A stretch of 64,000 nucleotides of DNA from the human T2T-CHM13v2.0 reference genome, Homo sapiens (GCF_009914755.1 NC_060944.1); one strand, 5' to 3'. Positions 55,015 to 59,705 are shown, counted from the first letter of the stretch. Notes: generated from the sequence alone by a model not told the origin. Numbers and translations: made by a program.

Positions 55015-55141
55015 ATGAAGCCTGAATGGGCTCACTTTTCTCTATGGCTCCTCATCTTGTCCATGCTTCTCCACACACCTTCAGGGAACATATTTCCTCC
55101 ACAACTCAGAAAACAGTTATGTGAAAGTGGACATCTTGGAG
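55015..55141 (+). CDS. SPINT5P: SPINT5 locus exon 1 (signal peptide MKPEWAHFSLWLLILSMLLHTPSG, then NIFPPQLRKQLCESGHLG)
   Basis: ATCATGA Kozak, hydrophobic leader, phase-1 donor GAG|GTAAAG; same architecture as SPINT4 exon 1. Confidence 0.8.
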
Positions 55142-55674
55142 GTAAAGAAAAACAGAAAGGGCAGACCAATGTGACACTGTGAAGGAGAGGGAGGTCTGGG
55201 CAGCCTGGGTGATGTTGCTGCCAGTAATTAGAATCAAGTCCCCTTTTTATCTCAAACCGTATGGCTCTAGGACATCTGATTCAGAGAATTACATTGAGTT
55301 TCCTCTATGGAGTGGAGAAGGAGGAAGACAGAAAGCAGAATCAACTTAAGTTTTAACCATGAGATTTCAGTATAAGAGTGGGGGTTATGAAAATGGGATT
55401 GATTTCAGAGGTGTCCAAGAAATTCCTTTGTTGGGGTGTGTGTCTGTACATTAGATGAGTTTTGAGTCTATTCAACACATATGTGTAGAACCACTATGTT
55501 ATATTCCACTGATACAGATATGCAGAGGCCATCATTCCCCCATATATGTATAGAGCACTCCTATCCTACTTATTTAAATTAATTTGTTCTTCATTCAAAT
55601 TAACATGAGCATCTGTGAAACACTCAAGGCAAAAGGGGCAAGTTCCCAATCATGGATAAGAATTGCAGTTGGGC

Positions 55675-55980
55675 GGCCAGGCGCAGTAGCTCACCCTTGT
55701 AATCCCAGCACTTTGGGAGGCCAAGGCAGGCGGATCACCTGAGGTCAGGAGTTTGAGAACAGCCTGTCCAATGTGGCGAAACCCCATCTGTACTAAAAAT
55801 ACAAAAATTAGCCGGGTGTGGTGGCGCATGCCTGTAGTCCCAGCTACTCGGGAGGCTGAGGCACAAGAATCACTTGAACCCAGGCAGCAGAGGTTGCAGT
55901 GAGAGCCGTGATAGCGCCACTACACTCCCTCCTGGGCAACAGAGCGAGGCTCCATCTCAATTAAAAAAAAAATGTAAAAA
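55675..55980 (+). mobile_element. Alu in SPINT5 intron 1
   Basis: TSD AAGAATTGYAGTTGGGC. Confidence 0.95.
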
Positions 55981-56039
55981 AGAATTGTAGTTGGGCTTCA
56001 AGAAGACTAACATTAACTCTTTCTCTGTCTCCAACTCAG

Positions 56040-56092
56040 TCATCATGGCTTCTGCTCTAACCACTTAATCTCCATGGTCTCAGTAAAACCAG
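56040..56092 (+). other. Candidate 53-nt cassette (poison) exon in SPINT5 intron 1
   Basis: Branch ACTAAC 56006-56011, pyrimidine tract, CAG|; donor CAG|GTGAGT; in-frame TAA at 56066-56068. Confidence 0.6.
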
Positions 56093-56643
56093 GTGAGTCT
56101 GGATGGGTAGGCAAAAGTGGGGCTGGATAGGAGAGGAAACAGACTGATGGAGGAAAGGAAGATCTGCCAGAGTGGACATTTTAAACCTGTCCTTCAGAGT
56201 AGGTGTAGTGGGTGAGAGGTCTTTTTAGCTTGTGTATTTGCACAGACTCTGGCAGGCAGAGAGGAGAGAGTGAAAGTAAGGGCTCTGAACTGTGTCCTTG
56301 AGGAAGCTGATGAGTTGTTCACTTCCAGTGACATGGGAAGCATGTGGAGTCAAGAAATGGGATATCTTTACTGCGAAAGATGAAGGAAACCTCAGGTCTT
56401 TCTTGTTCTCAGCTCTAAAATAGTATAAGTACCTCATTGTGCTTCTCTATTTCTCTCTGTGTCATGGACCCAGTCTGTAGTCTGGAACAATTTCCCCATA
56501 TGCTTAGGGAACTCTGTCTTGTTCCCCAGGGGTAAAATTAGTTAGATTTATGTGGGTTGGAAGTTTTAGTAGTCTGAGCCTGTGAGAACAAGAATGCCAA
56601 AAGAGTAGTAAAGAAAACCTGACTCTGGAATTCTCATTCACAG

Positions 56644-56812
56644 AATACTGCAACTATCCTCCGAAGAAGGGCACCTGTAATTCATATTTGACCAGATTCT
56701 ACTACAACACTTTGACATTTTTATGTGAGCCCTTTGTCTTCAGTGGCTGTGGAGGCAACAGAAACAACTTTAAACAGAAATATTTCTGTGAAAAAATGTG
56801 TATTACTGAAAA
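56644..56812 (+). CDS. SPINT5P: SPINT5 locus exon 2, intact Kunitz domain (absent from the ORF track)
   Basis: Acceptor TTCTCATTCACAG|; EYCNYPPKKGTCNSYLTRFYYNTLTFLCEPFVFSGCGGNRNNFKQKYFCEKMCITE with C-x8-C-x15-C-x7-C-x12-C-x3-C; donor AA|GTAAGT. Confidence 0.9.
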
Positions 56813-57061
56813 GTAAGTCTCTGGATATCTTACCCAACCCTCAATGACACCAAACACTAGGGATCAAAGCTTTTTAAGGAAAAAGGAAATGAAAGGCAAG
56901 GGCAATGAGCAGGGAGGCAAGAAATTATACCTAAGTTAGGGATAGCCTGTCATAGGTATTAATTTCTCAGGTCACTTAAATGTCACTATAATCAGTCATA
57001 GGCATAAGTTTTTCAGGTAACTTAGTTTAATAACATTCTTGAAATTGTGAAAATTGAAGTT

Positions 57062-57565
57062 CAGCCAAGCACAGTGGTGTGCACCTGTAGTCCCAGCTAC
57101 TTGGGAAGCTGAGGCAAGAAGATTACTTGAGCCCAGCATTCAAGACCAGCCTGGGCAATACAGCAAGACTTCCATTTAGATAGATAGATAGATAGATAGA
57201 CAGACAGACAGACAGACAGACAGACAGACAGACAGACAGACAGACAGACATAGATAGCCAGGCGCGGTGGCTTATGCCTGTAATCCCAGCACTTTGGGAG
57301 GCTGAGGCGGGCGGATCATGAGGTCAGTAGATCAAGACCATCCTGGCTAACATGGTGAAACCCCGTCCCTACTAAAAATACAAAAAGTTAGCTGGGCACG
57401 GTGGCACACACCTGTAATTCCAGCTACTCAGGAGGCTGAGGCAGGAGAATCGCTTGAACCCAGGAGGCAGAGGTTGCAGTGAGCCAAGATCATGCCACTG
57501 CACTCCATCCTGGGCAACAAGAACGAGACTCTGTCTCAAAAAAATAAAAATAAAAATAAAAATAA
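57062..57565 (+). mobile_element. Alu fragment, (GATA)n(GACA)n microsatellite (about 57177-57256), then a full Alu
   Basis: Alu motifs flanking a compound tetranucleotide repeat. Confidence 0.92.
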
Positions 57566-58020
57566 AGCTCAGAGAGGCTACTGATTTGCCCAAATTCACT
57601 CAGAAGAAGGACATGGATCCAGAGCTCCTAGCTCCCCACCAGCATCTCAGTACTACCAGGATGGCATCAGCTTTTTGAGATTGTGTTCAACATCTTATTG
57701 TTTCACAGTTAAATGGAAAGCTATGAGAATGTCAGAAGAGTAGGAGAAGACAAGGATCATGGTTTAGTATCCACTATAAAGAATAGCTAAACAATGGTCT
57801 TACACGCAAGAGCAGAGATATCACTTTATTCATCTGTATATTCTCAAAGTCTAGTACTATGTTTGCCCATTAATATTTTATGGATAGATGCATGGGTCAG
57901 GAGGAATATTAGTATTAAAGAGAGCTGTGAAGTTCTGCTGAGATGTTAAGGACCCATTGTTTGGGTCCTTATTGATACCAATGGCCATAATATTCTCTAA
58001 ATTTATTTATTCATTAACAG

Positions 58021-58036
58021 GGACCAAAGTCAATAG
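58021..58036 (+). CDS. SPINT5P: SPINT5 locus exon 3 coding part (K-D-Q-S-Q-stop)
   Basis: Acceptor TTTATTTATTCATTAACAG|; 127+169+16=312 nt = 103 aa plus TAG; AATAAA 58116-58121; downstream sequence resembles the SPINT4 3' UTR. Confidence 0.7.
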
Positions 58037-59705
58037 GGCCTTAATATGACAGAAGGAGGAAACAAGGAAAAAGGAGTATGCTCTATGAAAAATCATGCCA
58101 AAGTTATTCTGAGAAAATAAATTGGATTATTTCTAAAAGATTTTTGAATTCTGAATTCTTTCTAATTTCCTTGCCCAGGTTTACCTTTCATACTAATTAG
58201 ATATATAAAACTTTAACTGAAAATTTTCTGTATGTCAGCTCTGGTCTGAATTTATTCATCTCTCCCATTCTAGATTCTTCCAACATATACTGCAAATGAC
58301 CTCTCTGCAGGGACCAACCTATCCATGTAATGCATCAGTGTGTGTAAAGGCAATCATTATTGATATCTCCTCGGCATGACATGCCAAACCTGAGTTTCTT
58401 TCTGTATTTTGTCACTGACCTCAGTGGGATTTGCATGTAGGTGGCACCAAGATAATCATTATTAAATTCTTTCACCTGCTCCAAATCAAAGGGCATTCAA
58501 CCCACAAAAGTGATCATATTCTAGGGAAATATCTTCAGTGCCCCAGCTACAAGCCATATGGAAATTGTGACTTTACAGCTGAGAGCTATGAGTCTTGAAC
58601 CAAAGTGAACCTCTACTCTCAGAGCATGAAGGGCCACTCCCTTCTTCTCTGTCTTATTCATATTCTTGTCAAGGACTAAGCCTCACAAATGAATCTATTG
58701 ATATAAATAGCTTATGCCAGTGTTCTAAGGGCCATAAACAGTAGAATAAACTGAAGCTCAGAGTGAAGCCACTTGTGGGTATTCTAGCTCGATCTCAACA
58801 CTGGCAACCCCTAATCCTGAATTATGGGCATATCCTAGGAGAAATCATGGGAATTAGCAAAAAGTATGTGTTAAAGATGTCACCTAGTTCTGCTTCCAGG
58901 AATTACTCCTGTGCAAAAAAGGGACAAAGGAAACAAGAATGTTCTGGTAGCTTCTAGGTATTGAGGCAAAGTCTAGAATCTCAGACCATGCTGTGTCTTG
59001 GGCCTGAATGTCATGGTGCCTATTCATGGATTCTGAAGATTTTCCTTCCTCTGATTACTGTAAAAAACAGTGTTACATAAACAAGATTCAAGTGCAATTT
59101 TTTAAGTCTTTCAAAACTATAGTCTAGTCCAAAGAATTAATATAAGTAAAATATTCTCTGGAGACAAAGAATTACCGACAATGATGACCCAAAGTTCATT
59201 CTAGCCTCAAGTTTTCAGATTTCTTCTGGGCACTTGAGTAATTGCCCAAGTTTCTTTCTCAATCAATCCTATATTTGCATCTAAGAAAAAGGTATGTGTG
59301 TACTGTCTGTAGTGCTGAAGGAATATTTTATAATTACCCACAAAGATTAGTAAAAAGGCCCAAAGATATATGTGCATTGCAGACCTTCATAGAAAACCAC
59401 ATACCCAAGGACTAATACAGGACACAAATCCACAAGAAACCCAAGTGGATTTCACATTAAATTCAAGTGAGATATTTTGAGGAGAAAGTCACAGATAGAA
59501 GAGTAACAAAGATAAAAATATAAACCAAAACCTCAGAGTACAAACCAAAGACAGAATGAAAAGATTTTGGTTCTGACTCTAGCCTCTTCCCCTGAGTCAT
59601 ATCTTACCACTGGAGAAACTGAAAGGAAAAGATCCCATTACATATGAGATGGAAATTAAAAGTGGTTTAAGAAGATTCTGATTTCTCGTTTAAAAAGCCC
59701 CAAAG

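What the first reader, a model, noticed from the sequence alone, without database searches (positions are those of the whole stretch)
55015..58121. Apparently intact secreted Kunitz gene at the SPINT5 'pseudogene' locus
Seen in sequence: exons 55015-55141, 56644-56812 and 58021-58036 splice by GT-AG (phases 1 and 2, as in SPINT4) into an uninterrupted 103-aa ORF: MKPEWAHFSLWLLILSMLLHTPSGNIFPPQLRKQLCESGHLGEYCNYPPKKGTCNSYLTRFYYNTLTFLCEPFVFSGCGGNRNNFKQKYFCEKMCITEKDQSQ. It has a signal peptide, all six Kunitz cysteines at BPTI spacing, FxFSGCGGNxNNF, and AATAAA at 58116. The domain is more canonical than that of SPINT4. The ORF track misses the Kunitz exon. Recalled, not verified: this human locus is labelled SPINT5P, and Kunitz transcripts from this cluster have been studied, so it may not be wholly new. 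Inference: it may be a protein-coding epididymal gene with an unusual Asn at P1 (GTC-N).
Basis: partly seen in the sequence, partly recalled or inferred. Interest (0 to 1): 0.85.

Follow-up and report, generated by a model that had tools for sequence, protein, structure and literature searches.

The report
Human SPINT5 locus, already described
This is the human copy of the mouse sperm-maturation gene Spint5; its reading frame looks undamaged, but the cDNA published in 2011 carries an extra exon with a stop codon and is barely expressed, so the finding rediscovers a known borderline pseudogene.

Summary
The sequence facts hold. The three segments join by GT-AG into a 312-nt, 103-codon frame with a Kunitz domain and AATAAA at 58116.

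The exon model is incomplete and the finding is not new. Clauss et al. 2011 (PMC3209443) cloned human SPINT5 cDNA from epididymis with four exons of 142, 53, 169 and 118 bp. The 53-nt exon 2 lies at 56040-56092, exactly 898 nt after exon 1, and has an in-frame TAA at 56066-56068. They also noted that a mouse-like 9-nt exon 2 (56084-56092) would restore a signal peptide plus Kunitz frame. Transcript was about four orders of magnitude below SPINT3 and SPINT4, and recombinant SPINT5 could not be made.

New here:
- 10 of 25 mammalian orthologue models carry the microexon tripeptide.
- The loop residue P1 is Lys in 17 of 24 models; human has Asn.
- Human and mangabey proteins have diverged at similar rates, and no conserved site is damaged.
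- The window has Pro (CCG) at 56662 where primers from two papers have Leu (CTG).
- No human or ape protein record turned up.

Verdict: already known. Most likely a nearly silent, mis-spliced relic (about 0.6). A weakly expressed coding gene remains possible (about 0.3).

The parts
55000..55141 (+). Exon 1 of SPINT5: 15-nt 5' UTR, ATG at 55015, a 24-residue signal peptide, and an N-terminal extension with a seventh, conserved Cys. The donor is GAG|gtaaag.
   Evidence: Clauss et al. give exon 1 as 142 bp, and 55141-142+1 = 55000. The first 24 residues are identical to the Cercocebus atys protein P0005. The start-codon block aligns with SPINT4 exon 1.
56040..56092 (+). Exon 2 in the long form seen in human 5' RACE: 53 nt, which shifts the frame, with an in-frame TAA at 56066-56068.
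   Evidence: Intron 1 is 898 nt, exactly as published. The acceptor has 17/20 pyrimidines and the donor CAG|gtgagt matches the consensus 9/9. Translation stops after ten added codons.
56084..56092 (+). The mouse-like 9-nt microexon, sharing the donor of the 53-nt exon. If its CAG acceptor (56081-56083) is used, the frame stays open and three residues (VKP) are added, giving 106 aa.
   Evidence: Translation. Clauss et al. point out this CAG. A tripeptide sits at this place in 10 of 25 orthologue models. The acceptor has 14/20 pyrimidines and a CTAAC branch-like motif at 56057. Use in human is not shown.
56644..56812 (+). The Kunitz exon, 169 nt, phase 1 in and phase 2 out. It holds six Cys, the P1 codon AAT (Asn) at 56679-56681, and base 56662, which is C here (Pro) and T (Leu) in published primers.
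   Evidence: Pfam PF00014 at 59.4 bits, E 4.1e-16. PDB Kunitz matches. Orthologues are 60-89% identical. The RefSeq SPINT5P span 56644-56798 comes from the hub table.
58021..58138 (+). The last exon, 118 nt: five codons, TAG at 58034-58036, a 3' UTR, and AATAAA at 58116-58121.
   Evidence: Published size is 118 bp, so 58021+118-1 = 58138, which is 17 nt after the AATAAA. The Clauss qPCR reverse primer maps to 58032-58059.
58274..58339 (+). Tentative first exon (66 nt) of the published alternative 3' end of human SPINT5.
   Evidence: One of two AG...66 nt...GT candidates found in 58140-58700. It lies 1461 nt after the Kunitz exon, against 1,473 in the paper; the other candidate lies 1726 nt after. 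The placement is not exact.

Best explanation
This is the human orthologue of mouse Spint5. It is a four-exon member of the WFDC/Kunitz cluster on chromosome 20q13, lying between SPINT4 and WFDC3.

Its coding sequence and all its signals are undamaged: start codon, signal peptide, microexon acceptor and donor, Kunitz exon, stop and polyA signal. Even so, the gene is almost silent in the adult human epididymis. The full-length-type transcript recovered there uses a strong acceptor 44 nt upstream of the ancestral microexon acceptor. That gives a 53-nt exon 2 with a premature TAA.

Such an mRNA would encode only the signal peptide plus a short tail, and would be expected to be a target of nonsense-mediated decay (inference). 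The locus is therefore best read as a gene disabled at the level of expression and splicing, whose reading frame has not yet decayed. Hence the SPINT5P label.

If protein were made, it would be an 82-residue secreted Kunitz protein with seven Cys. Its P1 residue is Asn instead of the Lys found in most mammals, which argues against tight inhibition of trypsin-like proteases (inference from BPTI-family knowledge, recalled).
For: **Shown**
- Exon sizes 142/53/169/118 and the 898-nt intron 1 from PMC3209443 (sections read) map exactly onto 55000-55141, 56040-56092, 56644-56812 and 58021-58138.
- All 8 published human SPINT5 primers map here, 6 exactly and 2 with one mismatch at the same base.
- With the 53-nt exon the frame stops at TAA 56066-56068.
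- The upstream acceptor looks stronger than the microexon acceptor, 17/20 against 14/20 pyrimidines.
- Published expression: Ct 35-36, 0.003% of SPINT4 in epididymis, seen with only one primer pair. The authors call the transcripts possibly spurious or not fully processed.
- Robertson et al. 2020 (PMC7436996, passages) state that human SPINT5P is a pseudogene not processed into protein.
- No human or ape protein of 90% identity or more appears among the 25 hits of 98-2000 aa or the 2 hits of 30-97 aa, in a 5.8-billion-protein library that does hold monkey, lemur and many other mammalian orthologues.

**Inferred**
- Nonsense-mediated decay of the long-exon transcript.
- Functional silence of the gene.
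Against: - No lesion exists in the coding sequence itself. All six Kunitz Cys and the conserved seventh Cys are kept.
- No human residue departs from any column where 85% or more of at least 10 other orthologues agree: 0 found, as also for mangabey.
- Relative-rate counts are balanced, with 1-4 human-unique and 0-3 mangabey-unique changes over 13 outgroups. There is therefore no sign of faster decay on the human line, though the power is low.
- The microexon acceptor, its CTAAC branch-like motif and the perfect donor are intact. A T as first base of the microexon (Val) is also implied by the squirrel and hamster proteins.
- The RACE evidence rests on nested PCR of a very rare message from one tissue panel of 26 adult tissues. 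The authors themselves suggest an unsampled site or stage.
- The 5.8-billion-protein search works by shared words and 90% clusters, so a missing ape record is weak evidence.
Confidence: 0.6

Rival explanations
1. Human SPINT5 is still a protein-coding gene. In the right cell type or stage, exon 1 is spliced to the 9-nt microexon (56084-56092) as in mouse. That would give a 106-aa precursor and an 82-aa secreted Kunitz protein of about 9.6 kDa, and the pseudogene label would be an artefact of poor sampling.
For: - The frame is open under this model.
- The mature mass of 9,594 Da is close to the 9.7 kDa that Clauss et al. gave for this hypothetical product.
- The microexon tripeptide occurs in 10 of 25 orthologue models, including an Old World monkey (EKP) and a mouse lemur (AKP).
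- The splice signals and a branch-like motif are intact.
- There is no damage at conserved sites and no rate excess against mangabey.
- Mouse Spint5 is epididymis-specific, and the Spint4/5 double knockout impairs male fertility.
Against: - The junction has not been reported in human.
- The only RACE product joining exon 1 to the Kunitz exon used the upstream acceptor.
- The message was about four orders of magnitude below SPINT3 and SPINT4.
- No human or ape protein record was found.
- An intact 318-nt frame is weak evidence. Only 60 of 954 possible single-base changes make a stop, so a frame silenced within the last several million years would usually still be open (inference; the divergence rates are recalled).
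Confidence: 0.3
2. One reading: exon 2 is skipped altogether and exon 1 joins the Kunitz exon directly, giving the 103-aa protein as the main product.
For: - The frame is open.
- Skipping a 9-nt exon keeps the frame.
- 8 of 25 orthologue gene models join the two exons directly.
Against: - Those 8 models are automatic predictions, which easily miss a 9-nt exon.
- The cloned mouse cDNA has the microexon.
- Exon 2 has a perfect donor and a strong acceptor, which argues against skipping.
- The junction 55141>56644 is not among the human transcripts described in the parts of PMC3209443 that I read.
Confidence: 0.06
3. The locus acts only as a non-coding RNA, for example as a competing endogenous RNA, as Robertson et al. 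suggest in passing.
For: The idea is raised in the discussion of PMC7436996. Rare transcripts with many 3' non-coding exons exist.
Against: The transcript level is extremely low. There are no Rfam matches in 52000-60000. No test has been reported.
Confidence: 0.04

Closest known systems
Mouse Spint5 (GenBank AY542490, as cited in PMC3209443)
   Same: - Same position in the cluster, between Spint4 and Wfdc3.
- Same plan: signal-peptide exon, tiny exon 2, Kunitz exon of 169-170 nt, short last exon.
- A single Kunitz domain behind a signal peptide.
   Different: - Mouse splices a 9-nt exon 2 and makes a 105-aa precursor. It is clearly expressed in caput and corpus epididymis, and its loss together with Spint4 impairs male fertility.
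- The cloned human transcript has a 53-nt exon 2 with a stop, and its level is negligible.
- I did not see the mouse sequence itself. Rodent relatives are 60-75% identical to the human Kunitz exon.
Human SPINT4 (window 28621-32103)
   Same: - A paralogue 23 kb upstream on the same strand.
- The same intron phases, 1 and 2.
- Alignable promoter, 5' UTR and start-codon block.
- A Kunitz exon of similar size, and a Cys in the exon-1 extension.
   Different: - SPINT4 has three exons with no microexon, lacks one Kunitz Cys (five in its Kunitz-exon translation; Clauss), and has Tyr at the scissile bond.
- It is highly expressed in epididymis.
- SPINT5 has all six Cys and a higher Pfam score, 59.4 against 53.0 bits.
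Cercocebus atys predicted protein P0005 (106 aa, 'kunitz-type protease inhibitor AFAPI-I-like')
   Same: It is 95/106 identical to the human microexon model. The signal peptide is identical, the length is the same, and both have a microexon tripeptide.
   Different: Of the 11 differences, 4 lie in or next to the reactive loop: human KKGTCNSY against monkey MKGTCKIH. The monkey keeps Lys at P1, and its record is annotated as coding.
Canonical inhibitory Kunitz domains (BPTI, TFPI K1/K2, boophilin)
   Same: The Pfam domain, the six-Cys spacing, and the GCGGN.NNF core.
   Different: P1 is Asn instead of Lys or Arg (alignments). There is an extra unpaired Cys in the N-terminal extension. No inhibition data exist, because recombinant SPINT5 could not be produced.

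Membership tests
Kunitz/BPTI domain (Pfam PF00014) | Profile match above the curated cut-off | tested here: met
   59.4 bits, E 4.1e-16, profile positions 1-52 of 53, cut-off 21. 136 distinct PDB Kunitz sequences match at E <= 0.001.
Kunitz/BPTI domain (Pfam PF00014) | Six Cys with spacing C-8-C-15-C-7-C-12-C-3-C | tested here: met
   Read directly from P0001. All six are invariant in the 17-row alignment A1.
Kunitz/BPTI domain (Pfam PF00014) | Kunitz fold (beta-hairpin plus C-terminal helix) | tested here: inconclusive
   The AlphaFold2 model from the 17-row alignment has mean pLDDT 45.5 and pTM 0.27. The secondary-structure order E16-21, E26-31, H43-51 fits, but the model is too poor for a fold search.
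Standard-mechanism serine protease inhibitor | Measured inhibition of a protease, with a suitable P1 | not testable with these tools
   P1 is Asn. Clauss et al. could not produce recombinant SPINT5, so only SPINT3 and SPINT4 were assayed.
SPINT5 orthologous group | Position between SPINT4 and WFDC3 in the telomeric WFDC sublocus | tested here: met
   The hub gene table places SPINT4 at 28621-32103 and WFDC3 after the window. Clauss et al. place SPINT5 25 kb from SPINT4 and 25 kb from WFDC3. Four orthologue models fuse a SPINT4-like and a SPINT5-like domain (P0003, P0004, P0020, P0021), which shows adjacency elsewhere.
SPINT5 orthologous group | Closest relatives are the SPINT5-type proteins of other mammals, not SPINT4 | tested here: met
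   The hits are 60-89% identical. The conserved exon-1 motif L-C-E-S-G-H/Y-L-G is shared. SPINT4 of the same window is visibly far more different.
SPINT5 orthologous group | Four-exon structure with a 9-nt exon 2 | tested here: inconclusive
   The sequence of the microexon and its signals is present. Its use in human has not been observed, and there are no RNA data here.
Protein-coding gene | A correctly spliced mRNA with an open frame, observed in some tissue | not testable with these tools
   Published RACE found only products with a premature stop or without the signal peptide. No RNA-seq or proteome tool is on hand.
Unitary/unprocessed pseudogene | A disabling change within the coding exons (stop, frameshift, lost Cys) | tested here: not met
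   None under the microexon model or the skip model.
Unitary/unprocessed pseudogene | Loss of expression or of correct splicing relative to functional orthologues | not testable with these tools
   Supported only by the literature. Whether the upstream AG at 56038-56039 is specific to human or ape could not be checked, because no primate genomic DNA is held.

The most novel reading that the evidence does not exclude
Human SPINT5 is wrongly filed as a pseudogene. Through the conserved 9-nt microexon it would make, in a narrow epididymal segment or at an unsampled stage, an 82-residue secreted Kunitz protein with a human-lineage Lys-to-Asn change at P1.

The locus may also be polymorphic in quality. 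CHM13 carries the ancestral Pro at 56662, while the allele used for the failed recombinant expression carried Leu. If so, humans would keep a partner of SPINT4, which bears on SPINT4 as a contraceptive target.
Probability: 0.25. Interest if true: 0.45.

Novelty: already known. Interest (0 to 1): 0.2.

Why it matters
In mice, deleting Spint4 and Spint5 together impairs male fertility. Robertson et al. chose the double knockout, and proposed human SPINT4 as a contraceptive target, on the premise that humans have no coding SPINT5.

The premise rests on one RACE study of a very rare message, while the human reading frame and all its splice signals are intact. Settling whether the microexon is used would be a modest but concrete correction or confirmation of the human gene catalogue.

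As a discovery it adds little. The gene, its odd exon 2 and the possible rescue by the mouse-like acceptor were published in 2011.

Tried and rejected
- **Structure prediction of the Kunitz exon** with a 17-row alignment gave mean pLDDT 45.5. It was too poor to use, so no fold search was run.
- **The bacterial promoter/terminator scan** of 54700-55100 is not meaningful for a human gene and was disregarded.
- **Rfam on 52000-60000** gave 0 matches.
- **Supplements of PMC7436996** (7 files searched) held SPINT5P only in a primer table. Both primers lie inside the Kunitz exon, so that RT-PCR says nothing about splicing. SPINT5P did not occur in the other six files, including those that hold expression values. 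I did not check whether pseudogenes were eligible for those tables.
- **I first took the abstract of PMC3209443** to mean that recombinant SPINT5 had been assayed on eight proteases. Section 8 shows that it could not be produced, so that reading was dropped.
- **Intron sizes in the paper differ from the window:** 547 and 1,120 against 551 and 1,208. An (AGAC)18 array at 57178-57250 and an A-rich run at 57538-57566 lie in intron 3. I could not decide between length polymorphism, assembly differences and misprint.
- **dN/dS, population loss-of-function burden, RNA-seq junctions and proteome searches** could not be run. No primate or mouse genomic DNA, variant data or expression data are held.
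- **Literature.** The search for 'spint5' (word start, so it also finds SPINT5P) found 11 papers, 9 listed. 'spint4'+'wfdc'+'primates' found 6. Apart from PMC3209443, PMC7436996 and PMC11665854, which I read in part, I saw only titles and abstract starts, and none of those pointed to human SPINT5 splicing or protein.
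Full report
**1. The observation**

The stated coordinates are right. ATG is at 55015. The donor after 55141 is GAG|gtaaag, the acceptor before 56644 is cacag, the donor after 56812 is AAA|gtaagt, and the acceptor before 58021 is aacag. TAG is at 58034-58036 and AATAAA at 58116.

Joined, the three segments give 312 nt, that is 103 codons and a stop. The intron phases are 1 and 2, the same as in SPINT4 of this window.

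The middle exon is a Kunitz domain. It scores 59.4 bits on Pfam PF00014 against a cut-off of 21, while the SPINT4 exon scores 53.0. It has the six Cys in BPTI spacing, and 136 solved Kunitz sequences match it. In the alignments to boophilin and to TFPI domains 1 and 2, the Asn after the second Cys lies opposite their Lys or Arg. That those residues are their P1 is recalled, not tested here.

**2.

Clauss, Persson, Lilja and Lundwall described this gene as SPINT5 (BMC Biochem 2011, PMC3209443; I read the outline, Results sections 4 and 8, and passages of the Discussion and Methods). RACE on epididymal cDNA gave exons of 142, 53, 169 and 118 bp, with introns of 898, 547 and 1,120 bp.

In the window, exon 1 is then 55000-55141. 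The 53-nt exon 2 is 56040-56092, and intron 1 is exactly 898 nt. The Kunitz exon is 56644-56812 and the last exon is 58021-58138, which ends 17 nt after the AATAAA. All eight published human SPINT5 primers map here. The Clauss qPCR pair spans the intron 56813-58020.

With the 53-nt exon the frame runs ten codons and stops at TAA 56066-56068. [quoted passage not shown]

They cloned mouse Spint5, whose exon 2 is 9 nt, and pointed out a conserved CAG in human. If that CAG were used as acceptor, it would restore a signal peptide plus Kunitz frame and give a 9.7 kDa secreted protein. In the window that microexon is 56084-56092. It adds VKP and gives 106 aa, with a mature mass of 9,594 Da.

The junction it needs (55141>56644) is not among the transcripts described in the parts of the paper I read.

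**3. Expression and biochemistry in print**

SPINT5 transcript was detected only in epididymis, with only one primer pair, at Ct 35-36. That is 0.003% of SPINT4.

Recombinant SPINT5 could not be produced. Only SPINT3 and SPINT4 were assayed on the eight proteases, so nothing is known of SPINT5's inhibitory activity.

Robertson et al. 2020 (PMC7436996; passages and supplement search) state that human SPINT5P is a pseudogene not processed into protein. They found mouse Spint5 to be epididymis-specific, and the Spint4/5 double knockout to impair male fertility. Their human primers both lie within the Kunitz exon, so they do not inform on splicing. The 2024 PNAS paper (PMC11665854, passages) adds nothing on the human gene.

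**4. What the comparison with other mammals adds**

A search of 5.8 billion proteins with the Kunitz-exon translation gave 25 hits of 98-2000 aa, 60-89% identical, and 2 hits of 30-97 aa. Every hit that carries an organism name is mammalian; four come from sources without names. None is human or ape, and none reaches 90% identity. This fits with no coding record existing for hominoids. It is weak evidence, because the search works by shared words and 90% clusters.

The best hit by identity (third by E-value) is a 106-aa Cercocebus atys protein, 95/106 identical to the human microexon model.

The exon 1 to Kunitz join in the 25 models:

| State of the join | Models |
|---|---|
| Tripeptide at the microexon position (EKP, AKP, TKP, LRN, IRP, VRP, VKT, GKT x2, AKT) | 10 |
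| Exons joined directly | 8 |
| Longer insert | 1 |
| No recognisable exon-1 motif | 6 |

The four-exon plan with a microexon is therefore widespread in mammals. The direct joins are probably prediction misses (inference).

The P1 residue in the 24 models where the loop was matched:

| P1 residue | Models |
|---|---|
| Lys | 17 |
| His | 3 |
| Gly | 2 |
| Thr | 1 |
| Asn (hare) | 1 |

All three non-human primates have Lys, so the human Asn most likely arose on the human or ape line (parsimony inference).

**5. Is the human frame decaying?**

I built an alignment of the human microexon model with 14 orthologues. I left out the 11 fused, truncated or duplicate models.

Human and mangabey are about equally far from outgroups: 76 against 74 of 106 identical to Microcebus, 75 against 78 of 99 to Prolemur, 78 against 79 of 106 to Nyctereutes, and 77 against 79 of 99 to Panthera. 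Relative-rate counts over 13 outgroups are 1-4 human-unique and 0-3 mangabey-unique changes. No human residue departs from a column where 85% or more of at least 10 other rows agree.

There is thus no sign of relaxed constraint specific to the human line, but with 11 differences the power is low.

Four of the 11 differences lie in or beside the reactive loop. That is what fast-evolving inhibitors show, and equally what drift would allow.

An open frame is not strong evidence of function either. Only 60 of 954 possible single-base changes in the 318-nt frame create a stop. A gene silenced within the last few million years would usually still read open (inference; the divergence rates are recalled).

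**6. Splice signals**

Exon 2's donor CAG|gtgagt matches the consensus 9/9. The upstream acceptor (56040) has 17/20 pyrimidines and the microexon acceptor (56084) has 14/20. Each has a CTAAC branch-like motif at a suitable distance upstream, at 56007 and 56057.

Both acceptors are therefore plausible on sequence, with the upstream one looking stronger. This agrees with the RACE result, and it argues against wholesale skipping of exon 2. These are simple consensus counts, not a trained splice-site model.

**7. A variant**

At 56662 the window has C (CCG, Pro). The primers of both papers have T (CTG, Leu).

In the aligned orthologues this position is Pro in 10 of 14, Val in 3 and Ala in 1, and never Leu. 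The window's allele is therefore the ancestral one, and the change is at a CpG.

The construct that failed to express in E. coli was built with the Leu primer. Whether that mattered is unknown.

**8. Verdict**

The locus is human SPINT5/SPINT5P. Both its intact coding potential and the reason for doubt about it were published in 2011.

The most likely state is a gene disabled by near-silence and by use of an upstream acceptor that brings in a stop, with a frame that has not yet decayed (about 0.6). A weakly or narrowly expressed coding gene using the microexon remains a fair possibility (about 0.3).

The decisive data lie outside these tools: junction counts, comparative genomics of the exon-2 region, population variation and proteomics.

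Noticed in passing
window 56662: The window (CHM13) has C, giving CCG (Pro, BPTI position 9), where primers from two independent papers have T, giving CTG (Leu). Pro is the state in 10 of 14 aligned orthologues and none has Leu, so the reference-type Leu looks like a derived CpG transition. The failed recombinant SPINT5 construct used the Leu form.
   Followed up: partly
window 55120-55122 (Cys36 codon in exon 1): The exon-1 extension carries a seventh Cys in a motif (L-C-E-S-G-H/Y-L-G) that is nearly invariant across the mammalian orthologues. With all six Kunitz Cys present, it would be unpaired, which suggests a free thiol or an intermolecular disulfide. SPINT4 has a Cys at a similar place in its exon 1.
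   Followed up: partly
window 56586-56643 (3' end of intron 2): The frame stays open for 19 codons upstream of the Kunitz exon. The same ENLT.(E/G/A)FS-like peptide appears in intron-read-through gene models of hyena, bat, pig, peccary and an unnamed record (P0003, P0018, P0007, P0017, P0022). The last roughly 50 nt of this intron are therefore conserved across orders, perhaps as a splicing element.
   Followed up: no
window 56007-56039 and 56057-56083: The two competing exon-2 acceptors have a similar layout: CTAAC, then a TTAA-containing stretch, then a pyrimidine run ending in TCAG. This could be chance or a small duplication.
   Followed up: no
window 56093-56643 and 56813-58020: Introns 2 and 3 are 551 and 1,208 nt here, against 547 and 1,120 nt in Clauss et al. 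Intron 3 holds an (AGAC)18 array at 57178-57250 and an A-rich run at 57538-57566. The cause of the mismatch is not resolved.
   Followed up: partly
P0003, P0004, P0020, P0021: Four automatic gene models in other mammals (hyena, bat, vole, singing mouse) fuse a SPINT4-like and a SPINT5-like Kunitz domain into one protein. These are probably read-through mis-annotations, and they show that the two genes are neighbours in those genomes too.
   Followed up: no
window 54967-54973 versus 28590s (SPINT4): In the alignment of the two upstream regions, the TATA-like TATAAC of SPINT4 lies opposite GAT-ATTT in SPINT5, 27-33 nt before the mapped exon-1 start. This is a weaker TATA-like element in the poorly expressed gene. 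Observation only.
   Followed up: no
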